Of a stretch of 64,000 nt of DNA, positions 10,904 through 29,702 are shown piece by piece. Numbering within the stretch: the first letter of the stretch is position 1; the number at the start of each line of letters is the position of its first letter. This stretch comes from Anaerovorax odorimutans (GTDB lineage Bacteria > Bacillota > Clostridia > Peptostreptococcales > JAAYPU01). Location of the stretch: the NCBI GenBank assembly GCA_016841185.1, contig JAENZQ010000001.1, forward strand, positions 10,364-74,363. The letters are read 5' to 3'. A program made the translations under genes and the position numbers. Below the pieces are notes generated by a model, which searched no databases, was not told where the DNA came from, and worked only from the letters and a program-made list of their open reading frames with translations.

Positions 10904-11325
10904 TTACACCGCACCTCCTCGCATCGTTCATTAAAATACCGGATCGGAATGCTGCGCTGCTTTGCCTTTTCAATCTCAATGGACATCCCTTTAGTAATTT
11001 TTCTGCCAAATACCCACACTTCTGAGCACTTTGACATCAATACCATGCCAAAGAACAAGCCCAGATTTCGCATTTGTTCATCATCGTCGTCCATAAACTG
11101 CGGAAACAAGAGGTGCGGAGCAATAGGTATGCAATTCCTGCTCACTGCAAATCGGCAGTACCCCTGAGCCTTACGGATATTACGTTCTATATCACCAGCA
11201 TATGGGCTGCAGATAAATACCATTGGTCTGTAAGGCGCTTTCCTGGCCTCCCGTTCAATCCGGAGCAGTGCTTCATAAGGTGTGGGGTCGTAATATCCTT
11301 CCGCGTTAAACTTGCTGATACTCAT
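10900..11325 (-). CDS. DUF4406 / nucleoside 2-deoxyribosyltransferase-like protein
   Basis: 141 aa. The pattern ..VFICSPYAG..(helix)..IAPHLLF..CSEVWVFG..ITKGMSIEIEKA.. resembles the DUF4406/NDT-like fold family. Assignment from memory. Confidence 0.4.
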   Translation of the reverse strand: MSISKFNAEGYYDPTPYEALLRIEREARKAPYRPMVFICSPYAGDIERNIRKAQGYCRFAVSRNCIPIAPHLLFPQFMDDDDEQMRNLGLFFGMVLMSKCSEVWVFGRKITKGMSIEIEKAKQRSIPIRYFNERCEEVRCK

Positions 11326-11340
11326 GGTATTACCCCCTGC

Positions 11341-12162: not shown

Positions 12163-12166
12163 AACA

Positions 12167-14089: not shown

Positions 14090-14147
14090 GCGGTTCTCCT
14101 TTCCGCCCTATCGGAGATAGATAATCCATCACCGATAGGGCATTTGA

Positions 14148-14900
14148 TCACTTAAGCGGCTCAGTAATTTCACCTGATTCAGGGTCTACATTTATTACCT
14201 CTTCACCGGCAGGTTCAGTATCATGGCCGACTCGGGTACTGAATGCTTTGACCTGCTCAGAAAGCTTGGATATCAACACATATTCGTCAGCGGTCAGATC
14301 CCGATCTACAGCAAACTGAGCCTGTGAATAGGTGATACCGCTTGAATTGGTCGCCTTTTTCAATGAAAAGCGGGTAACTACGCTGTTCGATTTTTTACCT
14401 TTAGAAAGCAGCCTTTTGATGTAGCGGGAAAACTCTTTCAACGATCCTGTTGGCAATGAGAGTATCAACGGGAAAATCTCCCCTTCACGCAGTACATATA
14501 TCCTGCGGCGGTTCTTGCAAGCTTTGCTGCCGTTTTCCCCCGAACCGAACTGATTATATGGGCATTTGGCACAGCTTCCTCCGGGGTCTCCTTCGCCGGT
14601 TATACCATCAAAGCTTCCGCAATCCGGTGGGTTACTGCCTCCGGTATACTTGTCCTTGTAGTATGCATAAAGTGGATGATGATAAAGAATTACCGCTGAG
14701 AATTCCTTGACAGTATCAGGTTCTCCGGGATTTTCCCCGGGCACTTCGAATACTGTGCTGCCTGCGGACGGGATTTTTATGCGTTCAAAAGTCATGTCAA
14801 GACCGTCAAGTTCTGATGCCATTGCCTCGTCAAGATTGAAATTAGCGAGCTGAAGAAAACCTGTATTTTCGTTAATAGTTACGAGTTCATTGTTTTTCAT
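14148..14900 (-). CDS. Hypothetical replication-module protein with Cys cluster
   Basis: 250 aa, GGAGG RBS, ..PPDCGSFDG..GGSCAKCPYNQFG..SKACKNRRR.. (possible zinc-binding). No family named. Confidence 0.5.
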   Translation of the reverse strand: MKNNELVTINENTGFLQLANFNLDEAMASELDGLDMTFERIKIPSAGSTVFEVPGENPGEPDTVKEFSAVILYHHPLYAYYKDKYTGGSNPPDCGSFDGITGEGDPGGSCAKCPYNQFGSGENGSKACKNRRRIYVLREGEIFPLILSLPTGSLKEFSRYIKRLLSKGKKSNSVVTRFSLKKATNSSGITYSQAQFAVDRDLTADEYVLISKLSEQVKAFSTRVGHDTEPAGEEVINVDPESGEITEPLK

Positions 14901-15006
14901 GCTTTTATACCTCCGTAATTATGAATTTGGAATGTAATCTATATCATTGTTCTTTGAAACTTTGATCTTAGAACCGTATTTCGTGTACATTGCACTCTGA
15001 ACTTAT

Positions 15007-15423
15007 TTACCTTGCTGCTTTCCGCACAGTTACTGTTGTTTTTTCGAAGACATTCACAAGGCCTTTCAACCAGTCCGGAAGCTCGTCCCCATTCTCCGCA
15101 ATCTGTTCTTTAACAAATGCCGACAGAGAGTTTGCATTGACTGTTTCATAGATGAGTTCTCCGAAGCCTTTACTGCGCAGAGTATCAAACAGTTCTTCCT
15201 TCATGCCTGCGGCAGCACTGGCTCTTGTTGTCGTTGAAAGGCAGAACATTGTTCCTGCTCTTGTGAAGTTTTGCGTCTCACTGCTGATCATCAGCTCAGA
15301 CAGGCGGTATTCAACATCGTCAATCTCCGCATTTATGCTTTTCAGTTCCTCTTCAACAGCCTTCTTTGCCTCGCGCAGCTCCTTAAGGTGGTCAGCAAGT
15401 TCAAACATCGCATTATTGCTCAT
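15007..15423 (-). CDS. Coiled-coil phage protein (possibly Sipho_Gp157-like)
   Basis: Start set to ATG at 15423 (GGAGG 7 nt upstream). N-terminal coiled-coil ..LKELREAKKAVEEELKSINAEIDDVEYRL... Weak family guess. Confidence 0.4.
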   Translation of the reverse strand: MSNNAMFELADHLKELREAKKAVEEELKSINAEIDDVEYRLSELMISSETQNFTRAGTMFCLSTTTRASAAAGMKEELFDTLRSKGFGELIYETVNANSLSAFVKEQIAENGDELPDWLKGLVNVFEKTTVTVRKAAR

Positions 15424-16920
15424 AGCTTTCACCTCCTTCTGGAGCAAAGGGGTTTGTTCCTTTGCGGTAGTCGTCTATTAGCATTTTTGCAAGATCTGCC
15501 TTATTGCGCAGAGCTGTCAGAATTTTTGAGTCTACGGTACCCTTGGCGATAAGGTAGATATATGTGCAGCCGTTCTTCTGTCCAACTCTATGGATGCGGG
15601 CTTTTGTCTGCTCAAAATTCGACATGGAGTAATCAAGGGAGTAAAATACCATTGTGCTTGCAGCGGTTAGTGTAATACCAAGTCCAGCAGTTGCAATCTG
15701 GCCTACAAACACCATGCAGTCAGTATCATATTGAAACCGGTGGATTTGCTCTTGGCGGTCCTTAGTTGCACCATAAATACACGCATAGCCGATGTCCTTC
15801 TTCTCCAGCATCCTGCATATGGCATGGATTTCAGGAATAAACCTTGCTATGACAACCAGCTTATGTCCTTCTTGAATACTGCTTTCAAGGATATCTTCAA
15901 GAGCATTTAACTTGGCATCACTGACTTGCTCGATTTTCCCACCGTCATCGCTTCCGATGAAGCCCCCGGTTAATTGCGAAAGGCGAAGCAAGCGTGTTAG
16001 TATGTTTGTTGCTGTTACTTCTCCTGCTGACAGCTCAGTATAGCTTTGTTTGACAAGCTCTTTATATTTTTTCAAAGTTACAGGTTCAAGCTCAATATAG
16101 CGAATAATATCGGTGGTTTCCGGCAAATCCAGGCACTCCGCTTTGGTCGCCCGAAACGCAATGCTGTGAATCCTTTTCATCAAATCCTGTTCCATTGATT
16201 TTTTCAGCACCGGTGTATGGTTGCCATAGCCAACCATGTTGAAATACCGGTTTCGGAATGCATAAAAACTGTTACCAAAGACACGAGGATCAAGAAACTT
16301 ATACTGGCTGAATACATCTATGGCTTTGTTAGTTATAACCGTTCCTGTCAGTAGGAGCCGATACCGTGCAAGCAAGCCCAATCGGTGCATTGCTTTTGAA
16401 ACCGCCGTATTATGAGTTTTAATTTTGTGTCCTTCATCGGCAACGATAATGTCAGGATGCCAGTTTGCCAGTTCCTTTTCCATTCGCCATGCAGATTCGT
16501 AGTTGATTACCACTACATGGACACCTTCGCCAGTTAAAAATCTTAGTTGTTGGATTTTCTTTTGAATCGTGCCATTAAGGACTATAAGCTGATATGGGAA
16601 ATTTGCGAACCGTTTAAACTCGTCTTCCCACACTCCCAGAATGGAAAGCGGCGCAACTATTAGCACACGTTTTATTCTTCCTGCAGCAAGCAATGCTCCT
16701 ATAATGGCGATTGAGACAAGAGTTTTCCCAGTGCTGGTCAGCCCATTTCCATCAGGAGCGCTGCACCCCATCCGGAAATGGCAGAAACACCACCACCCTT
16801 CAGAAGTTCGAATAGACTGCAGATGAAATTGAAAGCACGAATCTGATGCTTGTATGGTCTGCCCTTTATGGGCATTGGAATTATTTGCTGCACTTTTGCA
16901 TTGCTCATTGAGGCTTGCAT
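15413..16920 (-). pseudogene. SNF2-family helicase interrupted by a 1-nt frameshift inside motif I
   Basis: Upstream ORF (start ATG at 16920, GGAGG RBS) reads ..RPYKHQIRAFNF..GAALLMEMG then stops (16738). The downstream ORF in the -1 frame continues LTSTGKTLV..., and joining them restores the SNF2 motif I (xLLxxEMGLGKT-like). Later motifs are present: DEGH (..IVADEGHKIK..) and the helicase C-terminal motif (..QTKARIHRVGQ..). Confidence 0.75.
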
Positions 16921-17023
16921 CTTATATCCTCCATCCTTCAATTTTGAGGGTTGGCCAACTCTCTGACTCAATGCTACTCGAATTGTTAAAGCCTGTCTGG
17001 ACATCTAAAGTCCATGTTTTGGG

Positions 17024-17092
17024 CAAAAAAATAGCCATTATGCAGTAAGGTTTTTGCGCCTTTTTTGCATAATGGCTTAAAATCTCATTATA
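17024..17092 (-). promoter_or_regulatory. TATAAT element followed by a long terminator-like hairpin plus U-run, upstream of the SNF2 operon
   Basis: Minus-strand TATAAT = plus 17087-17092, immediately followed by ATGAGATTTT (half of the 19-mer seen at 5571/5932). Hairpin GCCATTATGCA (17034-17044) / TGCATAATGGC (17067-17077), followed on the minus strand by UAUUUUUUU. Confidence 0.4.
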
Positions 17093-17110
17093 ATAGCCGG
17101 TTTAAAATAT

Positions 17111-17136
17111 AAAAAGTTGGACTTCCGAAGTCCAAC
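17111..17136 (-). terminator. Intrinsic terminator of the ImmA-like gene
   Basis: GTTGGACTT-CCG-AAGTCCAAC perfect 9-bp stem immediately after the stop codon, followed on the minus strand by UUUUU. T-run on the other side as well (bidirectional). Confidence 0.7.
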
Positions 17137-17142
17137 AATTTT

Positions 17143-19062
17143 TTAACTTATCATTTCTTTATATGCCTTCGCACAAAGAGGGGAAAGTCCCAAGGCTTCC
17201 AAAACTTCATTGCATTCATATATTGAATGCCCTCTATACGAATGGATAAGCTTTTTATACGCCAATTGCTGTGGAGTGTTATTGAGAGTATATCCGGCAA
17301 GCTTTAATATCTCTTCACTGTATGTAGGGCTTAGCTCCAATCCTATGCAGATTGCCACAACGGTTTCTAAAGTTGGATTGTTAAGTTCATTATTTTTTAT
17401 TCTGTCATATGTTTTTCCTGAAAGCAAAGTCTTTTCTATAAAAACAACCTTATTGTAGCCTTTTCTTTTGATATGTCCACATACCGCTTGGGAAAATGTC
17501 TGGGTTGTGCGGCTCAAATGCTGACCTTCTTCGACGAATTCTTCGTGAAATTTCTTTAGCTCTTCTGAACGATTAAATACCTCCATATTATGCTTGTCCG
17601 GATTAAATGTCGGCACTCTGTTATAATCCGGTGTAGCTTTACGGAACATTATAGAATCGAGGTATACTACAATGTCCATTTTGGAGGCTTTATTTAACTT
17701 TAAATCAAACAGAAGGCAACATTCATCTACATGCAGTTTTGCATAGTCTGTAAGATCAAGGCTTCCATTTTCTAATCTTTTAATATACTTGGAGTCATTA
17801 ATTACATAATGACCGTCAACATAAATAAAATTGCCGCTGTCTATGATCTTTGCAAATTCCGGATTTGCATAGTATTCAAAAAAGGAATCGCTTAGGCTAA
17901 TACTGTATGTTTGGTTATTTTGCAATGAGTCTGCCTTAAATGAATAATTGCTGATAAAGTGGTCATTAACGTATGTATATACGCCTTCAGCTTCCTTATA
18001 TCCAAGGTCAAGCATCCTTATTTTGGCTGCTATCCTTGACACCTGGAAGAAGTCAGCTAATTCATACAAGACATTTTCCATTATATTTAACCTGTCGTGA
18101 GTACCAAAAAGGAGCTCATTCTTTTTAATTAGCTCCTCAATCTTTTTGATAGTCGTTGATTTAGGCATAAGGATGCGAGGTGCGATTCCGTTAGCATGCC
18201 ATTCCATCCAGTCTTCTGGCGTCCATTGCTTTTTGTATTTAGTTGTTTCGTTTACTCTACAGCTTATGAGCAAAGCATCGCTGTTATATGTCTTAACTAA
18301 CTCATGGTATTTTCTATGCTTATACCAGTGAACACATTCATGAATAATGGTATTGTTCATGCACCCTACGTTTCGCATGAAATAAACATTAGGATCCACG
18401 AGAATAGTTCCTCTTGAAACTTCCAAAGGCTTATATGTTCTTTCATTTCTGTCGTAATATTCTATCGTACAATCTCCAAAAACTATTTGACCAAATATAG
18501 TGAAATGCTTTGTTAACTGGATTTCCTTAACCTTAAGCCCCATTCTTTTCGCTACTTCATCTACCGGAATAGGCACAGGAGTACTTAATGCTTCTGGGAA
18601 AAATTCACTTAGAAACTCGGTAGCAACATCGTCAAACTGTTCCTTTTCTATAATTGGCACTAAATACTCAGACAGTCGGCCTAATTTGCTTTCTCTGTAC
18701 TTGTTGTATATTGAAACAGAGTTGATTTGAAAATTCTGAATTCCGTCATCAAGATCAGCCTTACAGGAGATACGGAACCATTGTTCTATACCGTCATTTT
18801 CGCGATTCCTTCGCACTGTTTCTGCTATTTCAACTTCGGCTGAAACAATTACATCAAATAAAATACTATTGCCTGGTGAATCGGTTATGTCAATCGTTAT
18901 AATGTCAAAATCGGATAAAGCCGCTTCATCCGGTGATTGCACGCGGTATGAGTTGGATTCCAGCTTATCCGGGTTGTCCTCAATATACTCGGACAATTCG
19001 TCAAAGAGTTCATTGTAATACATATTTGCAATAACATCTCTGAACGAGCTGACGCTTGCCAT
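17143..19062 (-). CDS. Large ImmA/IrrE-family (M78-like) zinc metallopeptidase domain protein, 639 aa
   Basis: Start set to ATG at 19062 (GGGAGG 6 nt upstream; the track start is a TTG). HExxH motif ..NTIIHECVHWYKH.. in the middle of the protein, with about 230 aa N-terminal and about 340 aa C-terminal regions that I cannot assign. Divergent from an XRE HTH gene. Confidence 0.7.
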   Translation of the reverse strand: MASVSSFRDVIANMYYNELFDELSEYIEDNPDKLESNSYRVQSPDEAALSDFDIITIDITDSPGNSILFDVIVSAEVEIAETVRRNRENDGIEQWFRISCKADLDDGIQNFQINSVSIYNKYRESKLGRLSEYLVPIIEKEQFDDVATEFLSEFFPEALSTPVPIPVDEVAKRMGLKVKEIQLTKHFTIFGQIVFGDCTIEYYDRNERTYKPLEVSRGTILVDPNVYFMRNVGCMNNTIIHECVHWYKHRKYHELVKTYNSDALLISCRVNETTKYKKQWTPEDWMEWHANGIAPRILMPKSTTIKKIEELIKKNELLFGTHDRLNIMENVLYELADFFQVSRIAAKIRMLDLGYKEAEGVYTYVNDHFISNYSFKADSLQNNQTYSISLSDSFFEYYANPEFAKIIDSGNFIYVDGHYVINDSKYIKRLENGSLDLTDYAKLHVDECCLLFDLKLNKASKMDIVVYLDSIMFRKATPDYNRVPTFNPDKHNMEVFNRSEELKKFHEEFVEEGQHLSRTTQTFSQAVCGHIKRKGYNKVVFIEKTLLSGKTYDRIKNNELNNPTLETVVAICIGLELSPTYSEEILKLAGYTLNNTPQQLAYKKLIHSYRGHSIYECNEVLEALGLSPLCAKAYKEMIS

Positions 19063-19226
19063 ACCGTACCTCCCTAATAACATTTCATCATGCAGACCAG
19101 ATATTTCCTTATGTAAATTATAGCATAAATTGCGAAAAACACAATAATTAATTTGCGAACTCAAATTTTTGTTGTGTTTTAACCAGCTTTATGATATTCT
19201 TTATATTACAAGGCGAGGTGACAATT

Positions 19227-19442
19227 ATGGCCGTTAGCTATAAAAAACTATGGAAACTCTTAATTGATAAAGATATGAAAAAGAAAGATTTAAGAGAAGC
19301 GGCTGGTATTAGTACATCTTCTATGGCAAAACTCGGCAAAAACGAAAACGTAACTACTGATGTGCTTGTGAAGATTTGTAAGGCCTTAAAGTGTGATATT
19401 TCAGATATTATGGAGATTGAGCCGGATGACAAAGATAAATAG
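19227..19442 (+). CDS. Small XRE-family helix-turn-helix protein (71 aa)
   Basis: ATG at 19227 with GAGGTG 6 nt upstream. MAVSYKKLWKLLIDKDMKKKDLREAAGISTSSMAKLGKNENVTTDVLVKICKALKCDISDIMEI is a canonical Cro/C1-type HTH. Confidence 0.85.
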   Translation: MAVSYKKLWKLLIDKDMKKKDLREAAGISTSSMAKLGKNENVTTDVLVKICKALKCDISDIMEIEPDDKDK

Positions 19443-19479
19443 AGCTATGCTTATGTAAATACATAAAGGAGTGCGTATT

Positions 19480-22400
19480 ATGACTGCAAATCAGAAAAAA
19501 CTAATTAACCTGTTAAAAGAAATGTTCCAGTTCGATCAGGCTGACCTCGATTTTGGAATTTACCGCATCATGCGGATGAAACGGGAAGAGATCAGTCGTT
19601 TTATTGAAGAAGACCTTCCCGCGCAAATAACCAATGAGCTACGCGAACTTGTTTCGGTATCCGCCGAAGTTGATATGGCAGAAATTGACAAGCAGGTAAC
19701 AGACGCAAAATCTTTGAATATAAGCGAGACTGCAAAAGCTTCCATTATTGCTGAGCTTGAAGCAAAGAAAAAAGCTCTTGCAGAAAAGATTGACATATCA
19801 TCAGTAGAGGCAGATGTATACAACCATCTGACAAATTTCTTTTCCCGTTATTATGATGAAGGCGATTTTATCTCCCAGCGCCGCTACAAGGACGGTGCTT
19901 ATGCCATCCCTTATGAGGGCGAGGAAGTAAAGCTATACTGGGCAAACGCTGACCAGTATTATATAAAAACAAGCGAGTATTTCAAGGATTATACATTTAA
20001 GACCGCTTATGGGGATACTGTGCGCTTTAAACTGGTTGAAGCCGAAACTGAACAGGACAACAACAAGGCGAATGAAAAAAGGTTCTTTCAGCTCCATACA
20101 GAAAAACCGTTTGAATTAGTCGACGGAATTTTTACGATTTACATGGAATATAAAAACGGTGGAAAGAAAAATCAAGATGAATGCATCGGCGAAATCGTCA
20201 AGGCTTTTTCCGAGGCACAGGCTCGATATACACAGTTCTCCGCATTGTTAGCGACAAGTGATGGCAAAACGCTGCTTGAGCGGCAACTCAAACGGTATAC
20301 TGCGCGCAACACATTTGATTATTTCATCCATAAGGATTTGGGTAAATTCCTGCGTCGAGAACTGGACTTTTATATAAAAAACGATGTTATTTTCCTTGAC
20401 GATATTGATGAACAAGACGAAGCTAAGACAAAAGAGTATCTGACCAAGGCTAAAGTTATCCGCAAGATTGCTCACAAGATAATAGCTTTCCTTGCCCAGA
20501 TTGAGAATTTTCAAAAGAAGCTGTACCTGAAAAAGAAATTTGTGGTTGAAACAAATTACTGCATTACGCTTGACCGCATCCCGGAGGAATTGTATCCCGA
20601 AATTGCCGCAAACGACGATCAGCGTGAGGAATGGGTGCGCCTTTTTGCCATTGACGAAATCGAAGGCGATTTAACCCAGCCCACATACTCTGTGCCGCTG
20701 ACCGTAGAATTTTTAAAGGCAAACCCTTACCTTGTGCTGGATACGGCATTTTTCAGTGCGGAGTTTAAAGATAAACTTATCGCAGGCGTAGACAATTTGG
20801 ATGAAAACCTTGATGGGTTATTAATACATAGTGAGAATTTTCAAGCCCTTCAATTATTACAGACAAGGTATAAAGGACAAATCAAATGCATTTATATCGA
20901 TCCGCCTTATAACGCAAAATCAAGTGAGATATTATATAAAAATAATTATAAGCATTCCTCTTGGTTAAGTCTTATGTCAGACAGAATAAAAGCCTCTCAA
21001 ACACTTTTTAACGATAAACCTGTTTTTATTTGTGCAATTGATGAGGTTGAACAAGAACGTTTAGGTATATTACTTTCCCAATTATTCAATGAAAATTATT
21101 TTGGCAAAACCGCTGTAAGCATAGTTCATAATCCATCAGGACAGCAGGGAGATAATTTTTCTTATACCCACGAATTTGCATACTTCATTTATAATATTCC
21201 AGGAAGAAGCATTGCTGAGCAACTTAGGGAAGATCCAAATGAATGGGATAAGAGAAATTTTAGAGACGTTACGGGCGACGAATCCTTGCGAACAGCAGCT
21301 AAAACCTGTTTTTATCCTATCTTAATCAAAGATGGGACTATCATCGGTTTTGGGGATGTTTGTAATGATGATTATCATCCAGAAGTTAATGTATTTAGAG
21401 ATGATGGAGTTATCGAAGTATATCCGATTGATCCTCAAGGTATAGAAAGGAAATGGAGATTTGGAAGAGATACCGTAGAAACAATTAAAGATCAACTATT
21501 AGTCAACTATATAAACAATCGTAAAGTTTATGATATCCAGCGTTTAAAGAAGACGTTTAATTATAAATCATGTTGGCATGCCTCCATCTATTCGGCTAAC
21601 AATTATGGAACTCAACCATTAAATCAAATGTTTGGATATCAACCATTTTCATATCCAAAGTCAATATTCACTGTTAAAGATTGTATTTACGCTGGCCTTA
21701 ACGAGCAAAAAGCAGCCACAGTTTTAGATTTTTTCGCCGGCTCCGGCACCACTGCTCATGCAGTTATCAATCTTAACCGAGAAGATGGCGGAAGACGTAA
21801 ATATCTCCTTGTAGAAATGGGTGAATACTTTGACACCGTAACAAAACCACGTATTCAAAAAGTAATTTATTCTATGGATACCGAAACACAAAAAGGCTGG
21901 CGTGATGGTAAACCTGTTTCCCGCAAAGGTTCATCCCACGCATTCAAGTACCTGCGTCTCGAGTCTTATGAGGATACATTGAACAATATCGTACTCAGAG
22001 GCGGACAATACGATATGCTGGGCAGTGCCCGGGAGGGTTATCTCCTTTCCTATATGCTTGACGCTGAAGCTGAAGGAAGCAGCTGCCTGCTAAATATTGA
22101 CAAACTGGACAAGCCCTTTGACTATAAAATGAACATTACTCGTAATCTGGAGAGCCGCGAGCAGCCAGTCGACCTTGTTGAGACCTTTAACTACCTGATA
22201 GGGCTTACTGTTGCACGCAGCTATGCTCTCACAACCTTTGACGCCGAATTCATCATAGGCGAGTACGGTTCAGTTTCCGCTACCCTTAAAAATGGCAACA
22301 CCTATAAATTCAAGTCGGTTGAGGGCACTCTTCCGAACGGTGACAAAGCGCTTGTTATATGGCGCGAAATGACCGGCGATACTGTTAAAGACAACGCAGT

Positions 22401-22566
22401 TTTAGACGCATACTTCCGGCAGACGTTTGCCGATGCGCGTAGTTACAAGAAAATCTTTGTTAATTGCGACAATAACCTTCAGAACCTGCGCACAGAAAAC
22501 GAAAATTGGCGTGTTATCCTCATCGATGAGGAAATGAAAAAGCGCATATTTGAATACAGTGAGTAA
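19480..22566 (+). CDS. Type III Mod-like beta-class N6/N4 DNA methyltransferase with a long N-terminal extension (1028 aa)
   Basis: ATG at 19480 (AAAGGAG upstream). Motif IV IYIDPPYN (DPPY at 20899-20910) preceded by ..LLIHSENFQALQLL.., as in EcoP1I-type Mod. Motif I FAGSGTT at 21733-21753. About 470 residues precede DPPY. Confidence 0.85.
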   Translation: MTANQKKLINLLKEMFQFDQADLDFGIYRIMRMKREEISRFIEEDLPAQITNELRELVSVSAEVDMAEIDKQVTDAKSLNISETAKASIIAELEAKKKALAEKIDISSVEADVYNHLTNFFSRYYDEGDFISQRRYKDGAYAIPYEGEEVKLYWANADQYYIKTSEYFKDYTFKTAYGDTVRFKLVEAETEQDNNKANEKRFFQLHTEKPFELVDGIFTIYMEYKNGGKKNQDECIGEIVKAFSEAQARYTQFSALLATSDGKTLLERQLKRYTARNTFDYFIHKDLGKFLRRELDFYIKNDVIFLDDIDEQDEAKTKEYLTKAKVIRKIAHKIIAFLAQIENFQKKLYLKKKFVVETNYCITLDRIPEELYPEIAANDDQREEWVRLFAIDEIEGDLTQPTYSVPLTVEFLKANPYLVLDTAFFSAEFKDKLIAGVDNLDENLDGLLIHSENFQALQLLQTRYKGQIKCIYIDPPYNAKSSEILYKNNYKHSSWLSLMSDRIKASQTLFNDKPVFICAIDEVEQERLGILLSQLFNENYFGKTAVSIVHNPSGQQGDNFSYTHEFAYFIYNIPGRSIAEQLREDPNEWDKRNFRDVTGDESLRTAAKTCFYPILIKDGTIIGFGDVCNDDYHPEVNVFRDDGVIEVYPIDPQGIERKWRFGRDTVETIKDQLLVNYINNRKVYDIQRLKKTFNYKSCWHASIYSANNYGTQPLNQMFGYQPFSYPKSIFTVKDCIYAGLNEQKAATVLDFFAGSGTTAHAVINLNREDGGRRKYLLVEMGEYFDTVTKPRIQKVIYSMDTETQKGWRDGKPVSRKGSSHAFKYLRLESYEDTLNNIVLRGGQYDMLGSAREGYLLSYMLDAEAEGSSCLLNIDKLDKPFDYKMNITRNLESREQPVDLVETFNYLIGLTVARSYALTTFDAEFIIGEYGSVSATLKNGNTYKFKSVEGTLPNGDKALVIWREMTGDTVKDNAVLDAYFRQTFADARSYKKIFVNCDNNLQNLRTENENWRVILIDEEMKKRIFEYSE

Positions 22567-22578
22567 GGAGGCAGCATT

Positions 22579-25500
22579 ATGGCAAGAAGAAATAGGCAAC
22601 GTGCTAATGAGCCGCAATTAAAATTTTATCAAAAACTTCTGCTGAACCGCTACCTGCTCAGTCAGTTTAGTGTATCAAGTTTTAAAGAATTGGCTGCAGA
22701 ACTTAAGAAACCTGCCTTTGAAGAAATTGATAACGAAAGCGTTACCGGTTTTTACAAACAAATCGTTTCTCAACTCGGCACGAAATGCAAAATCCCTCAG
22801 GAAAAGCTGGCGGAATATGATTTGAATATAGTGGCCCATTTAAAGAAGATTAATGAAAGGCGGGATGAACCGCTTTCCCTCAAATACTTTCAATACCTCT
22901 CGCTGCTTTTTGTTGAGTACTACCTTGACAACTACTTCAATAACCGGCAAGGCTTACTTGACGGTCTAAATGAGCTTGTTGCCGATTTCAACGAGCAGTA
23001 CCTCAATGATGCAGTTGAGTTGTATGAAGAAAGTGACTTGAACAAAATTGCAATCTGGAACGCCACCGGTAGCGGCAAAACCCTGATAATGCACATTAAC
23101 TACCATCAGTACATTCATTATTCAAACTGTAAATTGCCGGACGGCGCTACATATATCCTTCTAACGCCAAAGGAAGGCTTATCCCTCCAGCATATTGAGG
23201 AATTTGAGGTATCTGGAATACCAGCTAAAATATATGATAAGTCAGCAAGCCGCTGGATGCGTTATGAAGGCGAAATTAGCGTTCTCGAGAATACAAAACT
23301 GGGAGAAAAGGATCAAGATACAATTGTATCTGTTAAGCGGTTTGGAAACCAGAATGTTGTTTTTGTGGATGAAGGCCACAGGGGGTCATCATCCGGTAAG
23401 GAAGGAAAATGGCAGAAATTTCGCGATGAGCTTTGCTCAGACGGTTTTTCGTTCGAATATTCCGCAACCTTTGGGCAGGCTATAGCTGCTTCCTCAGACA
23501 AATCACTTGCCAAACGTTACCAGAAGTGCATTATTTTTGATTATTCATACAAATACTTTTATCAAGACGGATATGGCAAAGACTATAACATCCTTAACCT
23601 TGCCAACGACAGCGATGAAGCAAAACGAAAGCTTTATCTGACAGCTTGCCTAATTGCGTTTTATCAACAAAAAAAGATATATTTGACATGCAAAAACGAA
23701 TTTGAACGCTTCAATATTGAAAATCCGCTGTTTGTTTTTGTCGGAGCTAGTGTAAATGCCGTCCGTACTGAGCGTGGACGCAAAGTTTCCGACGTTGTGG
23801 ATATCCTGCTGTTTTTCAAGGATTTTATTTCTAATACCAGTGAATCGGTTGCAAATATACAACAGTTACTATCCGGAAACACAGGATTGCTTGACAATCA
23901 TAATCGCGACATTTTTAGAAATGCTTTCCCATACTTGGAAAGCGAAGGGTTGTCCGCCGCTGATCTTTATAATGATGTTTTGAAAACAGTATTTAACTGT
24001 ACTTCCATTGGATCCATGCTCCATGTTGAGAATCTGCGCGGAATTAGCGGTGAAATTAGTTTACGTCTTGGCGAGAACGAACCCTTTGGTGTTATTAATG
24101 TCGGGGATGACAGTGCTTTATTAAAGCTATGTTCAGAAAACGGCTTCCATACAGATACCATATCATTCTCAGAGTCGCTGTTTCATAAAATCACAAAGCC
24201 GGATTCCACAATCAATATATTGATTGGCTCAAAAAAATTCACCGAGGGCTGGAACTGCTGGCGTGTATCGACAATGGGGCTTATGAATGTTGGCCGTAGC
24301 GAGGGAAGCGAAATTATTCAGCTTTTTGGACGAGGCGTACGTCTGAAAGGCTATTCACTGTCGCTGAAACGCAGCGCTTTTTATAAAAAGGAAAATCCAG
24401 AAATTTCTGTACCGAAGTATATAAGCATTTTGGAAACACTGAATATTTTCGGCGTCCGCGCTGATTATATGCATCAGTTTAAGGAATTCCTTGAAGCCGA
24501 AGGTGTTCCGCCCGAAAAAGGCCAACCGATAGTATTAACAATGCCGGTTATCCGGAACAAACTCTATAAAAAAGATAACCTGTACACATTGCGTGTCAAG
24601 GGCGGGCTTGATTATAGAAAGCATGCTAAAAAACCTTTTTTGAGATATGTTGAGGGTATCGTTGTTACGCTGGATTGTTATGCAAAGGTGCAGTTTGAAA
24701 CATCAAAAACACATTCATCAAGTGAGGTGACAAAAAATCAAACGACACTCAAACCCGAACATTTAGCTTTCCTAAACTATAATCGCATCTATTTCGAAAT
24801 ACTGCAGTATAAGAATAAAAAAGCGAGATACAATTTTAATATTAATAAAAATGATATATATGATTTGCTGAACAATCCTGAATATAACACCTCATGGTAC
24901 AAATTGCTCATTCCTGAAGATGAGCTGAAAATACGTAACTATGAAGACTACAGACGGTTTGAAAAGATAGCTGTTGCCTTGCTAATAAAATATTTCGACA
25001 GGCTCTATTACTTGGAGCGCAATCGCTGGGAATCGATGGTTGTTGGTTATGAGCTTGTCGCTATGAGTGATGAGGGTGATAATTTCCTGAACGAAGAAAA
25101 GGACGAATATACCATAAGCATCAGCAATACTGATGAAAATGAAGCCATGATTACCTGGCTTAAACGAATAATAGAAAAAGTAAATGAGGCGAAAGCGAAA
25201 AAACAAATCCTGGACTTTATTGAACAACGTGCTGACATGGAAGTTATCGGATTTCCAGCTCACTTATATGATCCTCTGCTTTATCTGGCAAAGAATAATG
25301 TGGAAATCGTTGTATCACCGGTGGCTTTAAACGAAAGCGAAGCAAAATTCATAAAAGATTTACGCCAACACCTTAAAGACAATGAAGCATTGTTTTCAGA
25401 TAAAGAACTTTACATTATCCGAAACAGGAGCAAAAAAGGAATTGGATTTTTTGAAGATAGCGGTTTTTATCCGGATTTCATTATGTGGCTTATTGTCAAT

Positions 25501-25779
25501 GGAAAACAATATATAACATTCATTGACCCACATGGTCTTAGGCAAGAAAGCATTACTTCAAGCAAAATCAGGCTGCACAAAAGCATTAAAACCAGTATTC
25601 AAAGCAAGCTTGCAGAACCATCGGTAGTGCTTAATTCCTTTATTTTGTCACCTACAAAATATGCAGAACTTCCGGACAGAAGTACCCCTAAAGCAGAGTG
25701 GATAGAAAATAATGTTCTTTTTATGGAGGACGTCAATTACATTCAGAGACTTTTTGACACAATTAAAAAACAAGCTTAG
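22579..25779 (+). CDS. Res-like SF2 helicase (ResIII/DEAH type) with C-terminal PD-(D/E)xK-like region (1066 aa)
   Basis: GGAGG RBS, 12 nt after the methyltransferase stop. Walker A ..NATGSGKT.. (23068-23082), motif II ..VFVDEGHRGSS.. (23368-23379), motif III SATFG, motif VI ..QLFGRGVRL... C-terminal ..GFYPDFIMW..(17 aa)..FIDPHG... Confidence 0.8.
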   Translation: MARRNRQRANEPQLKFYQKLLLNRYLLSQFSVSSFKELAAELKKPAFEEIDNESVTGFYKQIVSQLGTKCKIPQEKLAEYDLNIVAHLKKINERRDEPLSLKYFQYLSLLFVEYYLDNYFNNRQGLLDGLNELVADFNEQYLNDAVELYEESDLNKIAIWNATGSGKTLIMHINYHQYIHYSNCKLPDGATYILLTPKEGLSLQHIEEFEVSGIPAKIYDKSASRWMRYEGEISVLENTKLGEKDQDTIVSVKRFGNQNVVFVDEGHRGSSSGKEGKWQKFRDELCSDGFSFEYSATFGQAIAASSDKSLAKRYQKCIIFDYSYKYFYQDGYGKDYNILNLANDSDEAKRKLYLTACLIAFYQQKKIYLTCKNEFERFNIENPLFVFVGASVNAVRTERGRKVSDVVDILLFFKDFISNTSESVANIQQLLSGNTGLLDNHNRDIFRNAFPYLESEGLSAADLYNDVLKTVFNCTSIGSMLHVENLRGISGEISLRLGENEPFGVINVGDDSALLKLCSENGFHTDTISFSESLFHKITKPDSTINILIGSKKFTEGWNCWRVSTMGLMNVGRSEGSEIIQLFGRGVRLKGYSLSLKRSAFYKKENPEISVPKYISILETLNIFGVRADYMHQFKEFLEAEGVPPEKGQPIVLTMPVIRNKLYKKDNLYTLRVKGGLDYRKHAKKPFLRYVEGIVVTLDCYAKVQFETSKTHSSSEVTKNQTTLKPEHLAFLNYNRIYFEILQYKNKKARYNFNINKNDIYDLLNNPEYNTSWYKLLIPEDELKIRNYEDYRRFEKIAVALLIKYFDRLYYLERNRWESMVVGYELVAMSDEGDNFLNEEKDEYTISISNTDENEAMITWLKRIIEKVNEAKAKKQILDFIEQRADMEVIGFPAHLYDPLLYLAKNNVEIVVSPVALNESEAKFIKDLRQHLKDNEALFSDKELYIIRNRSKKGIGFFEDSGFYPDFIMWLIVNGKQYITFIDPHGLRQESITSSKIRLHKSIKTSIQSKLAEPSVVLNSFILSPTKYAELPDRSTPKAEWIENNVLFMEDVNYIQRLFDTIKKQA

Positions 25780-25826: not shown

Positions 25827-25891
25827 TATTAGGCTGTTGTTAATTTTTTTAACGGCTAAGTCTCTGCTAAATGATAGAAGGGGGGGTTATT

Positions 25892-27106
25892 ATGTATCAG
25901 TTAACAATTGAAGACATAGAGCGCAGTAATAGCCTTGCACTTCAACCGGGTCGAACTGCTTTTATTGATGAGTGCGGGAACTTCGGATTTGACTTTGAAG
26001 CTAAGGGAACTTCTGAAGCAGGTGGCCCTTCGCTCTATTATATTGTTTGCGCCGTTGTTGTAAAAAACGAGAATATTAGTGCTCTTGAAATTGAAGCTAA
26101 TAAAATTCGCCAAAATAATGGTTTTCAAACCGGAGAAATGAAATCTAGCTTAATAGGCAATAACCATAAGCGTAGAATAAAGATACTCACTGAATTGCTA
26201 AATCTTGATTTTTCACTGGTTATGCTTATTGCAGATAAACAAAAATTTTATAGGGATTCGCCTCTTACTAATTATAGGGAGTCATTCATAAAGTACCTTC
26301 ATCAAAAACTGTATAATGAAATGTACGCGGCATATCCAAAACTTAAAATCGTTGAGGATGAATATGGATTATCAGAGTTTCAAAAGGGGTATCGTGAATA
26401 TGTTTGTGCTAACAGACCACAACTAAACCTACTTAACGAATATGATTTTGATTATGTCAACAGTAAACATAGTCCGATAGTACAAATTGCAGATATTATT
26501 GCAGGTTCAACCATGCAGCACCTTTTAGACAATAAGGCTCCAAATGTCTTGAAAATATTCCAAGGCAAAATTAGGGGGCTTGTCAATTTTCCAAGCACAT
26601 ATTCTTCCTTCCTTGCAGGAATTAAGGCAGATAAAAGCTTTGACGAAAATATATATGTGTTAGCCGACCATTGTGCAACTCAATATATAGACTCTCATAT
26701 AGATACCGATGAAACAGATACAAGGATGCGTGTTTTGTTCTTAAAGCATTTGCTATGGGTAGTTCGTAATATTAATCCCCGTAAATATATTTCATCGGGC
26801 GAAATTATCAAGGTTCTATCCGACCTTTCTGATAGTAAGGTTCGTCGTGACTATTTATACCGAAGAATAATTGCTCCTTTGCGCGATGCTGGCGTAATTA
26901 TAGCCAGTTGTTCTCATGGCTATAAAATACCTACGTGTATTGATGATATCTATACGTATGTAAACCAAACAAATGGCATTGTTGGCCCTATGCTCAATCG
27001 TGTTGAAAAATGCAGACAACTTATTCTTTCTCAAACTGACGGTTCTCTTGATATTTTTGACGATCCTGCCCTAAAAAAATACAAGCGTTATTTCGGAGAT
27101 TATTAA
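25892..27106 (+). CDS. DUF3800 domain protein with winged-helix-like C-terminal region (404 aa)
   Basis: ATG at 25892 (GGGGGG 7 nt upstream). N-terminal ..TAFIDECGNFGF.. and later ..VQIADIIAGS.. match the two conserved DUF3800 motifs as I remember them. The C-terminus ..SSGEIIKVLSDLSDSKVRRDYLYRRIIAPLRDAGVIIASCSHGYKIP.. looks like a wHTH. Confidence 0.7.
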   Translation: MYQLTIEDIERSNSLALQPGRTAFIDECGNFGFDFEAKGTSEAGGPSLYYIVCAVVVKNENISALEIEANKIRQNNGFQTGEMKSSLIGNNHKRRIKILTELLNLDFSLVMLIADKQKFYRDSPLTNYRESFIKYLHQKLYNEMYAAYPKLKIVEDEYGLSEFQKGYREYVCANRPQLNLLNEYDFDYVNSKHSPIVQIADIIAGSTMQHLLDNKAPNVLKIFQGKIRGLVNFPSTYSSFLAGIKADKSFDENIYVLADHCATQYIDSHIDTDETDTRMRVLFLKHLLWVVRNINPRKYISSGEIIKVLSDLSDSKVRRDYLYRRIIAPLRDAGVIIASCSHGYKIPTCIDDIYTYVNQTNGIVGPMLNRVEKCRQLILSQTDGSLDIFDDPALKKYKRYFGDY

Positions 27107-28955: not shown

Positions 28956-29702
28956 CTACAGATCGAATATTTCTCTTAGATTGACGCTTAGCCCTTCAAA
29001 ATAATAAGACTGGAGTGTATCATGCCCCTTGTAGGTAGAAAATTCTTCGATTTTACGATCCTCAAATTTGTAAACGAGCATTATCTTTTTCTGGCGATCG
29101 GCAATCCAGAATTCTTTGACACCTGATAACATATAGGTATTTAATTTGTCCACCATGTCTTTGGATCTTGTACTGGGTGATAGAATCTCTACAACAAGAG
29201 TAGGCGTCCCCATATAACGTCCTTTTTCGTTGACTGTACCCTCTGTATCGCAGGCAATTAGCAAATCAGGCTGCATGACATCCGGATCTTTAAAGTCCGG
29301 CTTAAAAAAATGTACATCGAAGGGGGCATAAAAGACTTTGCACTTTTTGTCTTTCAAATATTCTGCAAAGATTAAGTGGAGCTTTCCAGAAATCTCCTGA
29401 TGGAAAGTACTTGGGGAAGACAAAAGGATAATTTCTCCATTGATGTATTCCATTCTTAACTCGGTTTTTTCATATATTTCCATGAACTCTTCATAGGATA
29501 CCTTTTTGCCTTGGTATTGATAGTCCAGCGCCTCCTCTTTGACTGTTAAATATCGTTCAATATCTGTTATGTATGGCGAAAGTCTTACAGCCTTTTTTCC
29601 GTTCTTTGTTATGACCACTTCATGGTTGTCAATGACGTAGTCCAGGTACTTACCCAAATTTTTCTTGAATTCCGTAGCTGTAATGGTTTTCTTTAAATTC
29701 AT
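28956..29702 (-). CDS. Fusion protein: Phd/YefM-type antitoxin-like N-terminal domain plus Uma2 (DUF820) PD-(D/E)xK endonuclease-like domain
   Basis: N-terminus MNLKKTITATEFKKNLGKYLDYVIDNHEVVITKNGKKAVRLSPY (Phd/YefM pattern). C-terminal part ..EYINGEIILLSSPSTFHQEISG..QPDLLIACD..LVVEILSPSTRSKD..EFWIAD.. (Uma2 pattern). Confidence 0.65.
   Translation of the reverse strand: MNLKKTITATEFKKNLGKYLDYVIDNHEVVITKNGKKAVRLSPYITDIERYLTVKEEALDYQYQGKKVSYEEFMEIYEKTELRMEYINGEIILLSSPSTFHQEISGKLHLIFAEYLKDKKCKVFYAPFDVHFFKPDFKDPDVMQPDLLIACDTEGTVNEKGRYMGTPTLVVEILSPSTRSKDMVDKLNTYMLSGVKEFWIADRQKKIMLVYKFEDRKIEEFSTYKGHDTLQSYYFEGLSVNLREIFDL

What the first reader, a model, noticed from the sequence alone, without database searches (positions are those of the whole stretch)
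19480..20890. Unassigned N-terminal domain of about 470 residues on the Mod-like methyltransferase
The recognisable methyltransferase core only begins around ..LLIHSENFQALQLL..IYIDPPYN (DPPY at 20899-20910, residue ~474). In EcoP1I/EcoP15I-type Mod proteins, as I recall, the equivalent segment lies much closer to the N-terminus. The preceding region has a conserved-looking start (..LLKEMFQFDQADLDFGIYRIMRMKREEISRFIEEDL..) and coiled-coil-like stretches, but no catalytic motif that I can identify. It could be a sensor, a docking domain for the helicase, or a DNA-reading domain.
Basis: partly seen in the sequence, partly recalled or inferred. Interest (0 to 1): 0.6.

Follow-up and report, generated by a model that had tools for sequence, protein, structure and literature searches.

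The report
Uncharacterised N-terminal module of long Mod
The first ~385 residues of this DNA methyltransferase form a real, strongly conserved module of unknown function and no recognisable fold; it marks a large, widespread branch of Type III-like restriction-modification systems and always travels with one particular large helicase-nuclease partner.

Summary
The ORF at 19480-22566 encodes a 1028-aa beta-class Mod, with DPPY at residues 474-477 (nt 20899-20910). Pfam, NCBIfam and PDB sequence searches assign nothing upstream of about residue 440. Solved and short Mods align only from about residue 388-446, so the true extension is about 350-385 residues rather than 470.

The module is the best-conserved part of the protein. 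It occurs in at least 3,400 50%-identity clusters across bacterial phyla and on an archaeal plasmid, always at the N-terminus of ~1000-aa Mods. PADLOC's REBASE-derived "MTase_III" model PDLC03646 covers it, so the family is catalogued but undescribed.

An AlphaFold2 model (pLDDT 86) has no Foldseek match in the PDB or BFVD.

The module is strictly linked to the long Res type in both directions: 58 of 59 Mod-anchored loci and 56 of 57 Res-anchored loci. DUF3800 is lineage-specific cargo (0 of 160 loci).

In 56 of 70 loci a ~970-aa DrmD-like SNF2 gene directly precedes Mod. The window lacks it.

Res carries its own PD-(D/E)xK motif.

Best reading (inferred, confidence about 0.4): a non-catalytic assembly and communication platform that replaces the short helical N-terminal domain of canonical Mods and docks Res. 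The function itself remains untested.

The parts
19227..19442 (+). 71-aa HTH_26 (Cro/C1-type) protein, probably the first, controller-like gene of the operon
   Evidence: Pfam PF13443, E=2.9e-22. Homologous HTH genes head the operon in L001, L003, L004, L008 and L082, and an annotated HTH regulator gene holds the same position in L091.
19480..22566 (+). Long Mod, a 1028-aa beta-class N6/N4 DNA methyltransferase of the Type III-like 'long Mod' clade
   Evidence: Hits PADLOC MTase_III PDLC03646 (E=3.5e-192) and PF01555 at residues 468-783. PDB Mods 7dsu, 6k0w and 4zcf align from residue 439 onward.
19480..19578 (+). ModN residues 1-33: N-terminal helix plus the near-invariant DLDFGIYRIM motif (residues 22-31)
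   Evidence: L23, F25, G26 and R29 are invariant in 90 sequences. The model places helices at H3-15 and H26-33.
19582..19788 (+). ModN residues 35-103: long antiparallel helical hairpin, variable in sequence and shortened in some relatives
   Evidence: The model places helices at H35-78 and H83-103. Conservation is 0.43. Relatives P0176, P0242, P0243 and P0247, and PADLOC PDLC03638, lack most of it.
19792..19989 (+). ModN residues 105-170: acidic, aromatic-rich, highly conserved segment (FFxRYYxEGDF..RRYK..YAIPYEGEEVKLHWANxDQYYIKTSE)
   Evidence: F120, F121, P144, E149, Q159, Y161 and K163 are invariant. 23% of residues are aromatic and pI is 4.5. It is the only part of the model with low pLDDT (46-65).
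19990..20157 (+). ModN residues 171-226: small beta-sheet sub-domain
   Evidence: The model places strands at 171-174, 180-188, 201-205, 211-214 and 217-226. N194, K196, R201 and F203 are conserved.
20173..20532 (+). ModN residues 232-351: helical sub-domain carrying the NTFDYFIHKDLxxFLRRELDFYIKNE and FQKKLWLKKKF motifs; the only basic part of the module
   Evidence: D280, F282, H284, L287, F290, E294, E342 and K351 are invariant. pI is 9.3 for residues 271-365. pLDDT is mostly 81-95 in 10-residue blocks.
20560..20787 (+). Residues 361-436: small alpha/beta region that probably corresponds to the N-terminal domain of canonical short Mods
   Evidence: Short-Mod profiles begin to align at query residues 388-416, at their own positions 20-29. 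The EcoP15I Mod N-terminal domain is residues 14-60 (PMC4490356).
20899..20910 (+). Catalytic motif IV, DPPY (residues 474-477)
21733..21753 (+). SAM-binding motif I, FAGSGTT (residues 752-758). It lies after the variable TRD (~500-740), which gives the beta-class motif order.
21880..22566 (+). Conserved C-terminal extension of Mod (residues ~801-1028; KYxxLESYEDxL, ETFNxLxGL). It is also unassigned.
   Evidence: No Pfam hit. It is covered only by PADLOC PDLC03646, positions 844-1028. Conservation is 0.34-0.64.
22579..25779 (+). Long Res, 1066 aa: a conserved ~140-aa N-terminal extension, an SF2 ATPase (GSGKT 164-168, DEGH 264-267, SAT 295-297, QxxGRGxR 581-588) and a C-terminal PD-(D/E)xK nuclease motif (E921, P965-D966, D983-P-H985)
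   Evidence: Hits PADLOC REase_III PDLC03654 (E=5e-204) and Pfam ResIII (E=1.1e-8). Motif conservation is shown. It follows a ModN-bearing Mod in 58 of 59 and 56 of 57 loci.
25871..27106 (+). DUF3800 protein, 411 aa: lineage-specific cargo attached to the cassette, not a family-wide partner
   Evidence: PF12686, E=1.4e-11. It is absent from 160 related loci. The identical protein follows Res in close relatives in different chromosomal contexts, and once stands alone beside an IS3 transposase.

Best explanation
ModN (residues ~1-385) is a lineage-specific and probably non-catalytic assembly and communication platform. It sits where canonical Type III Mods have a short helical N-terminal domain (EcoP15I residues 14-60). 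In EcoP15I that domain intertwines in the Mod2 dimer and decides how Res can bind.

In this clade the position is expanded into four parts: a helical arm, an aromatic/acidic segment that probably orders only on binding, a small beta sub-domain and a basic helical sub-domain. I propose that this module helps build the Mod dimer and holds the cognate long Res on the methyltransferase. The likeliest contact on Res is its own clade-specific ~140-aa N-terminal extension. Site recognition by the TRD would then be coupled to the Res ATPase and its C-terminal PD-(D/E)xK nuclease. In most relatives the module may also contact the upstream SNF2 protein.

Shown here: the boundaries of the module, its conservation, its distribution, its obligate linkage to Res, the absence of any known fold or motif, and the presence of the nuclease motif in Res. 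Inferred: the dimerisation and docking roles and the identity of the contact surfaces.
For: 1. The module and the long Res are mutually obligate. Res follows Mod in 58 of 59 Mod-anchored genome loci with at least 3.5 kb downstream; the exception is a truncated Mod remnant. A ModN-bearing Mod precedes Res in 56 of 57 Res-anchored metagenome loci; the exception is cut by the contig end.
2. ModN is as conserved as the SAM and catalytic motifs, or more so, and far more conserved than the TRD (0.72-0.78 against 0.26-0.40). This is expected of an interface with a conserved partner, not of a specificity or sensor element.
3. The most conserved stretch (residues 131-170) is the only region of an otherwise confident model (mean 86.3) with low pLDDT. 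It is acidic and 23% aromatic. That pattern is typical of segments that fold on a partner.
4. Positional analogy with EcoP15I. Its Mod N-terminal domain (residues 14-60) forms part of the dimer interface, and its conformation precludes a second Res. EcoP15I RecA1 starts at residue 7, whereas this Res has a conserved 140-aa extension before Walker A (PMC4490356).
5. Res supplies the nuclease: E921, PD965-966 and D983-x-K/H985 are conserved in 59 sequences. Mod therefore need not carry one.
6. The core ModN motifs stay equally conserved in the 12 compared full-length Mods from loci without the SNF2 gene (window included). Their constraint therefore comes from Mod and Res, not from SNF2.
7. No catalytic family matches in Pfam, NCBIfam, PADLOC, PDB sequences or Foldseek.
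Against: - No interaction was computed or measured. Multimer modelling was not available.
- Co-occurrence is expected for any two subunits of one enzyme and does not locate the interface. In EcoP15I, Res is contacted mainly by the MTase domain and C-terminal domain of ModA, not by the N-terminal domain.
- The number of invariant polar residues (R29, E149, Q159, K163, D280, H284, E294, E342, K351) is high for a pure scaffold and would also suit an active site.
Confidence: 0.4

Rival explanations
1. ModN is mainly the docking platform for the DrmD-like SNF2 ATPase that precedes Mod in most family members. In the window, which has lost that gene, ModN would be a partly vestigial remnant.
For: An SNF2 ortholog (770-1200 bits) lies directly upstream of Mod, often overlapping it, in 56 of 70 loci with enough upstream DNA. 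The same arrangement occurs on E. coli and Klebsiella IncF plasmids. The hairpin (residues 34-104) is marginally less conserved in SNF2-less loci (ratio 0.66 against 0.73, uncorrected p=0.047).
Against: The core motifs (residues 126-200, 271-365) are equally conserved with and without SNF2. Fourteen of 70 loci, including the window lineage, keep an intact ModN without SNF2. The p-value is marginal, and the sequences are not independent.
Confidence: 0.15
2. ModN is a sequence-independent DNA-binding or clamping element. It would grip flanking DNA, for example to load Res or to hold the complex during sliding.
For: A conserved basic helical sub-domain (residues 271-365, pI 9.3) carries invariant K351 and near-invariant K352 and K353, plus R293 and K300. 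A small beta sub-domain has conserved N194, K196 and R201.
Against: The module as a whole is acidic (pI 5.0; 80 D+E against 63 K+R). No HTH, OB or other DNA-binding family was detected.
Confidence: 0.2
3. ModN is an unrecognised enzyme, either a second nuclease or another catalytic or nucleotide-binding domain.
For: Many polar residues are invariant or nearly so (D129, E149, K163, D280, H284, E294, E342). E110...D129...E149-V-K151 superficially resembles a PD-(D/E)xK pattern.
Against: K151 is replaced by V, T or L in 13 of 90 sequences. The putative motif lies in the low-confidence, largely non-beta region of the model. No nuclease or other enzyme fold was found by Foldseek, Pfam or PADLOC. 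Res already carries a conserved nuclease motif. There is no Walker or HKD motif; H284-K285-D286 does not fit HxK(x)4D.
Confidence: 0.1
4. ModN is a sensor of phage proteins or of infection state that switches the enzyme on.
For: It is a large accessory domain on a defence enzyme, and variable defence cargo clusters around the operon.
Against: It is the least variable part of the protein across phyla. Known invader-sensing modules diversify rapidly. No ligand-binding family was detected.
Confidence: 0.05

Closest known systems
The catalogued 'long' Type III family behind PADLOC models MTase_III PDLC03646 and REase_III PDLC03654. An example is WP_004197497.1 / WP_004197500.1 on E. coli plasmid pEC316_2 (NZ_CP018955.1) and on Klebsiella IncF plasmids.
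   Same: The domain order is the same end to end: ModN, MTase with internal TRD and C-terminal extension in Mod; N-terminal extension, SF2 ATPase and PD-(D/E)xK motif in Res. The plasmid proteins match the two models over their full length, and the window proteins match the same two models.
   Different: The plasmid system and 56 of 70 family loci have a ~970-aa DrmD-like SNF2 gene between the HTH gene and mod; the window does not. The window adds a DUF3800 gene after res. Its Res has H in place of K in the D-x-K motif.
Canonical Type III R-M enzymes: EcoP15I (PDB 4zcf), EcoP1I, H. pylori Mod (6k0w) and Mbo45V (7dsu)
   Same: Shared features are a beta-class Mod with DPPY before FxGxG and an internal TRD, mod-res gene order, and a Res with SF2 motifs and a C-terminal PD-(D/E)xK motif. 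The Mod core aligns at E=8e-30 to 2e-17.
   Different: Canonical Mods are ~540-650 aa, with a 47-residue helical N-terminal domain and DPPY near residue 125-130. Here ~350-385 extra N-terminal and ~200 extra C-terminal residues are present. The Res profile finds no PDB chain, not even EcoP15I Res, at E<=0.1. Res also has a 140-aa N-terminal extension.
Class 1 DISARM (DrmD-DrmMI-DrmA-DrmB-DrmC)
   Same: In most family loci the gene order is SNF2, methyltransferase, helicase. The SNF2 protein scores 652 bits on a PADLOC DrmD model.
   Different: Neither the Pfam nor the PADLOC scans of the operon proteins returned DUF1998 (the DrmA/DrmB mark) or a PLD domain (the DrmC mark). Mod is PF01555 beta-class, and no DrmMI model appears among its reported PADLOC hits. 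The window lacks the SNF2 gene altogether.
Large methyltransferases with N-terminal accessory domains: BREX PglX/BrxX, Type IIL/IIG (MmeI, DrdV, BpuSI) and Type ISP (LlaGI/LlaBIII)
   Same: All have a long N-terminal region ahead of an N6-adenine methyltransferase in a defence enzyme.
   Different: Those enzymes are gamma-class, and their N-terminal parts are nuclease, helicase or HsdM-like dimerisation domains (from my own knowledge and PMC12839542). No solved structure of any kind matched the ModN model (no match at E<=0.001; best E=0.065, TM<=0.15), and no PADLOC PglX or related model hits ModN.

Membership tests
Type III restriction-modification (EcoP1I/EcoP15I kind) | Mod is a beta-class amino-methyltransferase: motif IV (DPPY) precedes motif I (FxGxG), with the TRD between them | tested here: met
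   DPPY is at 474-477, the variable region at ~500-740 and FAGSGTT at 752-758. PF01555 hits with E=3.2e-21.
Type III restriction-modification (EcoP1I/EcoP15I kind) | Mod is homologous to experimentally solved Type III Mods | tested here: met
   7dsu E=8e-30, 6k0w E=1.6e-27 and 4zcf (EcoP15I Mod) E=2e-17, all over the MTase core only.
Type III restriction-modification (EcoP1I/EcoP15I kind) | Res is an SF2 helicase-like ATPase with intact motifs, encoded directly downstream of mod | tested here: met
   GSGKT 164-168, DEGH 264-267, SAT 295-297 and QxxGRGxR 581-588 are invariant in alignment A4. Pfam ResIII hits with E=1.1e-8. The res start is 13 nt after the mod stop.
Type III restriction-modification (EcoP1I/EcoP15I kind) | A C-terminal PD-(D/E)xK endonuclease in Res | tested here: inconclusive
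   The motif is conserved: E921, P965-D966, D983-P-K985 (K in 51 of 59 sequences). The window has H985, as do 8 of 59 sequences. The fold of this region was not modelled.
Type III restriction-modification (EcoP1I/EcoP15I kind) | Res is recognisably homologous to EcoP15I/EcoP1I Res | tested here: not met
   The Res family profile finds no PDB chain at E<=0.1. Only the generic ResIII, DEAD and SNF2 Pfam ATPase models hit.
Type III restriction-modification (EcoP1I/EcoP15I kind) | ATP-dependent cleavage needing two inversely oriented unmethylated sites, with hemi-methylation by Mod2 | not testable with these tools
   This is a biochemical property.
'Long Mod / long Res' clade (PADLOC PDLC03646 + PDLC03654) | ModN module at the extreme N-terminus of a ~1000-aa Mod | tested here: met
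   PDLC03646 hits with E=3.5e-192. ModN alone scores 298 bits on it. The top 150 library representatives nearly all carry the module within their first ~25 residues.
'Long Mod / long Res' clade (PADLOC PDLC03646 + PDLC03654) | The cognate ~1060-1120-aa Res lies downstream | tested here: met
   PDLC03654 hits with E=5e-204. Linkage is 58 of 59 and 56 of 57 loci.
'Long Mod / long Res' clade (PADLOC PDLC03646 + PDLC03654) | A DrmD-like SNF2 gene directly upstream of mod (frequent but not universal) | tested here: not met
   It is present in 56 of 70 loci. In the window the HTH gene (19227-19442) abuts mod (19480). The only SNF2 gene in the window (15413-16771, minus strand, 452 aa) belongs to the neighbouring phage-like module.
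DISARM | DrmA/DrmB (helicase plus DUF1998) core and DrmC or DrmMI/MII | tested here: not met
   The PADLOC scan of Mod, Res, DUF3800 and HTH reported no DISARM model; Res hit only REase_III, and the Mod table (capped at its 25 best rows) held only MTase_III, MTase_II and PD-Lambda-5_B models. Pfam finds no DUF1998 or PLD domain.
BREX / Type IIL-IIG fused enzymes | A gamma-class PglX/MmeI-like methyltransferase with a known N-terminal nuclease or HsdM-like domain | tested here: not met
   The methyltransferase is beta-class PF01555. No PglX or MmeI Pfam or PADLOC hit was found. There is no Foldseek match to any PDB chain.

The most novel reading that the evidence does not exclude
ModN is a new fold with its own biochemical activity, either catalytic or an allosteric nucleotide or DNA-state switch. 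It would make the SNF2-Mod-Res operon a distinct class of ATP-dependent restriction system in which one methyltransferase scaffold coordinates two different motors. That would be more than a decorated Type III enzyme. The window would then be a naturally reduced two-component version that kept the switch.
Probability: 0.15. Interest if true: 0.75.

Novelty: new variant of a known kind. Interest (0 to 1): 0.45.

Why it matters
Type III enzymes are the least-understood classical restriction systems, and the mechanistic picture rests on EcoP1I and EcoP15I.

This analysis shows that a very large branch, currently annotated only as 'DNA methyltransferase' plus 'DEAD/DEAH helicase', differs from that paradigm in several ways:
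- It comprises at least 3,400 50%-identity clusters and is present in more than 580 species representatives, on Klebsiella and E. coli IncF plasmids, on a haloarchaeal plasmid and in prophage-like elements.
- It has a ~385-residue module of unknown fold at the position that controls dimerisation and Res stoichiometry in EcoP15I.
- Both subunits carry further extensions.
- A second ATPase (SNF2) is usually present.

Knowing what ModN does would show how recognition is coupled to the motor or motors in this branch. It would also give annotators a defining marker for it.

For the window itself the practical result is modest. The locus is an intact-looking, SNF2-less member of this branch, carried beside a phage-like element.

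Tried and rejected
- **PD-(D/E)xK nuclease in ModN** (E110...D129...E149-x-K151). Rejected as the leading idea. K151 is not conserved (77 of 90), the region is not predicted as the required beta-strands, no nuclease fold or family matches, and Res has its own conserved motif.
- **HKD/PLD motif at H284-K285-D286.** The spacing does not fit HxK(x)4D; judged from the sequence.
- **DUF3800 as a functional partner of ModN.** Rejected as a family feature (0 of 160 loci). It is lineage-specific cargo.
- **Internal duplication, or homology of ModN to Res, to the SNF2 protein or to the Mod C-terminal extension.** hhalign probabilities were below 1%.
- **ModN paralogues elsewhere in 80 loci.** None were found.
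- **Weak but recurrent Pfam hits across 28 family members.** None; at most 3 of 28, all chance helical families.
- **Phase-variable simple repeats in mod.** None.
- **Loss of ModN conservation in SNF2-less loci.** Only a marginal effect in the hairpin (p about 0.05, uncorrected). Not used as evidence.
- **Literature.** Six full-text searches (DUF3800, Type III N-terminal extension, DrmD/SNF2/Type III, Klebsiella plasmids, COG0553+COG2189, defence islands) found no description of this module or of the SNF2-Mod-Res operon. ARMADA and BREX-related systems were read and are different.
Full report
**1. The observation**

The ORF at 19480-22566 (+) encodes a 1028-aa protein. The real start is ATG 19480, behind an AAAGGAG ribosome-binding site at 19465-19471. 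The GTG at 19471 reported by the ORF lister lies inside that site, and all homologues begin at the Met.

Motif I (FAGSGTT) follows at residues 752-758, after a variable stretch, which gives the beta-class motif order.

Pfam recognises only PF01555 at residues 468-783. NCBIfam recognises nothing useful. At E<=10 no Pfam model touches residues 1-440, whether scanned whole, in three pieces, or in any consistent way across 28 family members.

Solved Type III Mods align only from query residue 439 (Mbo45V chain residue 92) or 446 (H. pylori Mod chain residue 96). Their DPPY therefore sits near residue 125-130. Profiles of short Mods begin to align at query residues 388-416, at their own positions 20-29.

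The segment is therefore real and unassigned. The part that is truly extra is about residues 1-385. Residues ~361-440 most likely correspond to the canonical Mod N-terminal region.

**2. What the module looks like**

The module is the best-conserved part of the protein. In 67 full-length homologues from many phyla, mean column identity is 0.72-0.78 over residues 1-50 and 100-450. The TRD scores 0.26-0.40 and the SAM motif region 0.77.

In a 90-sequence alignment the following residues are invariant: L23, F25, G26, R29, L46, F120, F121, P144, E149, Q159, Y161, K163, D280, F282, H284, L287, F290, E294, E342, K351 and Q381.

A first AlphaFold2 model from 28 sequences was mediocre (pLDDT 71). A second model from 90 more diverse sequences is good (mean pLDDT 86.3, pTM 0.67). 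It shows:
- an N-terminal helix;
- a long helical hairpin (residues 35-103), which is variable in sequence and shortened in some relatives;
- a helix at residues 106-124;
- an acidic, 23%-aromatic and highly conserved stretch (residues 131-170), the only low-confidence part of the model;
- a small beta-sheet (residues 171-226);
- a helical sub-domain (residues 232-351) that is the only basic part (pI 9.3);
- a small alpha/beta region (residues 361-436).

The module as a whole is acidic, with pI 5.0.

**3. Is it a known domain?**

No evidence says so.
- A family profile searched against all PDB sequences gives one chance hit (E=1.4).
- Foldseek of the good model against 350,542 PDB chains gives a best E of 0.065, with TM-scores of 0.15 or less. 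Helical proteins such as CorA and the GABA-B receptor were prominent among the top hits.
- The same search against predicted viral structures gives a best E of 0.04.
- Among 5,027 PADLOC models, only two contain the module, and both are labelled Type III methyltransferase. PDLC03646 is this family end to end. PDLC03638 is an 816-position model sharing residues 105-370.
- hhalign finds no relation to Res, to the SNF2 protein or to the Mod C-terminal extension.

**4. Distribution**

- The N-terminal query finds 3,528 90%-identity clusters among a capped candidate set.
- An exhaustive profile search of 1.84 billion 50%-identity representatives finds 3,461 proteins at E<=1e-3 and 1,294 at E<=1e-30. 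In nearly all of the 150 best, the module starts within the first ~25 residues of a protein that is ~1000 aa when complete.
They span Firmicutes, Planctomycetota, Bacteroidota, Proteobacteria, Nitrospirota, Chloroflexota, Elusimicrobia, anammox bacteria and others.
- The module is on 29 plasmids, including Klebsiella and E. coli IncF plasmids and a haloarchaeal plasmid.
- It is on 21 IMG/VR viral contigs.

RefSeq calls these proteins simply 'DNA methyltransferase' and 'DEAD/DEAH box helicase family protein'.

**5. Partners**

- Anchoring on Mod, 58 of 59 genome loci with at least 3.5 kb downstream carry the long Res homologue (730-1400 bits). The exception (L008) is a Mod truncated at about residue 320-360.
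- Res follows Mod directly, or overlaps it, in 36 of 63 loci. In the others it follows after 0.2-6 kb, and the larger gaps hold unrelated cargo such as an ATPase with a small companion ORF, a large PHP-like ATPase, or a Fic-like gene (functions judged from the translations, not scanned), much as is seen inside Type I operons.
- Anchoring independently on Res in metagenome contigs, 56 of 57 loci with at least 3.3 kb upstream carry a ModN-bearing Mod. The exception is cut by the contig end.

DUF3800 is absent from all 160 of these loci. However, the identical DUF3800 protein follows Res on many contigs of the window's close relatives in at least two chromosomal contexts. It once stands alone beside an IS3 transposase. 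It is therefore lineage-specific cargo.

An unexpected result concerns a ~970-aa SNF2 protein that scores 652 bits on a PADLOC DrmD model. It lies directly upstream of Mod in 56 of 70 loci with enough upstream DNA, and on the enterobacterial plasmids. The window and its nearest relatives (L001, L008, L082-L085) lack it. The slightly more distant L003 and L004, which share the window's flanking genes, have it. The core ModN motifs are equally conserved with and without SNF2.

**6. Res**

The SF2 motifs are invariant. The C-terminus carries a conserved E921...P965-D966...D983-P-K985 pattern, a PD-(D/E)xK signature. The window and 7 other loci have H at position 985. Res has a conserved ~140-residue extension before Walker A, whereas EcoP15I RecA1 starts at residue 7. 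The Res profile detects no PDB chain at E<=0.1. The helicase subunit is therefore only distantly 'Type III'.

**7. Mechanism**

In EcoP15I the 47-residue helical Mod N-terminal domain intertwines in the Mod2 dimer. Its asymmetric pose prevents a second Res from binding. Res itself is held by the MTase domain and C-terminal domain of ModA (PMC4490356).

ModN occupies the same position, is obligately linked to a Res that has its own clade-specific N-terminal extension, is invariant rather than diversifying, is acidic and aromatic, and contains a conserved stretch that the model cannot order on its own. The best-supported reading is that ModN is an enlarged assembly and communication platform: it contributes to the dimer interface, docks Res, and perhaps contacts SNF2 where that protein is present. 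I put this at about 0.4. It is inferred, not shown.

The rivals are an SNF2-specific dock (0.15), a non-specific DNA clamp using the basic 271-365 sub-domain (0.2), an unrecognised enzyme (0.1) and an infection sensor (0.05). An apparent PD-(D/E)xK pattern in ModN (D129...E149-x-K151) does not hold up, because K151 varies and the fold prediction does not fit.

**8. Classification and novelty**

The Mod meets the sequence-level criteria for Type III. Res meets the motif-level criteria but not recognisable homology to EcoP15I Res. The DISARM and BREX criteria are not met.

The locus is a member of a clade that REBASE-derived models already file under Type III. I found no description of that clade's extra modules or of its usual SNF2 partner in six full-text literature searches.

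I therefore rate it a new variant of a known kind, of moderate interest. The domain is real, very widespread and structurally unplaced. The window adds only one SNF2-less example, and no mechanism could be demonstrated here.

Noticed in passing
L091 5965-8928 (E. coli plasmid pEC316_2); L003 7111-9987; 56 of 70 genome loci. Absent from the window between 19442 and 19480.: A ~970-aa SNF2 ATPase directly precedes the long Mod in most family members, giving a three-gene SNF2-Mod-Res operon. It scores 652 bits on PADLOC DrmD model PDLC02619 and has ~400 C-terminal residues with no assignment. The window lineage has lost it. I found no literature describing this operon.
   Followed up: partly
window 25531-25539 (Res residues 983-985): The third position of the Res nuclease motif D-x-K is His in the window (D983-P-H985). 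It is Lys in 51 of 59 relatives. The His variant recurs in 8 loci from unrelated phyla (L003, L004, L044, L048, L051, L060, L069), so it is probably tolerated or functional.
   Followed up: partly
window 8348-19164 (minus strand); L003 1-6750; L008 163-5110: The R-M cassette abuts a phage-like replication module: NrS-1-type primase-polymerase, Bro-N/ANT antirepressor, family A DNA polymerase, a short 452-aa SNF2 and a 673-aa weak M78-like protein. The module is syntenic in Syntrophomonas zehnderi and Hespellia stercorisuis, and close relatives of ModN occur on IMG/VR viral contigs. The cassette appears to be cargo of a prophage-like element family.
   Followed up: partly
window 25871-27106; L081-L090: An identical 411-aa DUF3800 protein follows Res on many metagenome contigs in different chromosomal contexts. 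On L081 it stands alone next to IS3-family transposase genes, with Mod and Res gone. At 90% identity its cluster (51 members) and the Res cluster (48 members) are much larger than the Mod cluster (3 members), which fits rapid TRD turnover in Mod. The C-terminal ~200 residues of the DUF3800 protein have no Pfam hit.
   Followed up: partly
window 21880-22566 (Mod residues ~801-1028): Mod also has a conserved C-terminal extension of ~200 residues (KYxxLESYEDxL, ETFNxLxGL, WR) with no Pfam assignment. By analogy with the EcoP15I Mod C-terminal domain, it may be the Res-contacting part.
   Followed up: no
L005, L007, L016-L019, L031, L059, L064, L071, L080 (between mod and res): In about 40% of loci, 0.6-6 kb of unrelated defence-type cargo is inserted between mod and res. 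By eye from the translations (not scanned), these look like an ATPase with a small companion ORF, large PHP-like ATPases, a Fic-like protein and an ATP-dependent DNA-binding protein. This resembles the hitch-hiker genes inside Type I operons.
   Followed up: partly
window 28956-29702 (minus strand): A 248-aa fusion of a Phd/YefM antitoxin domain with a Uma2 (putative restriction endonuclease) domain lies just beyond the tRNA (uracil-5)-methyltransferase-family gene (PF05958) that flanks the cassette.
   Followed up: no
L020, L043, L052, L063, L075, L082, L162: In several relatives the long mod is split into two ORFs, usually within or before the TRD. These could be frameshifts, pseudogenes or assembly errors. 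No simple-sequence repeat that would suggest phase variation is present in the window's mod.
   Followed up: no
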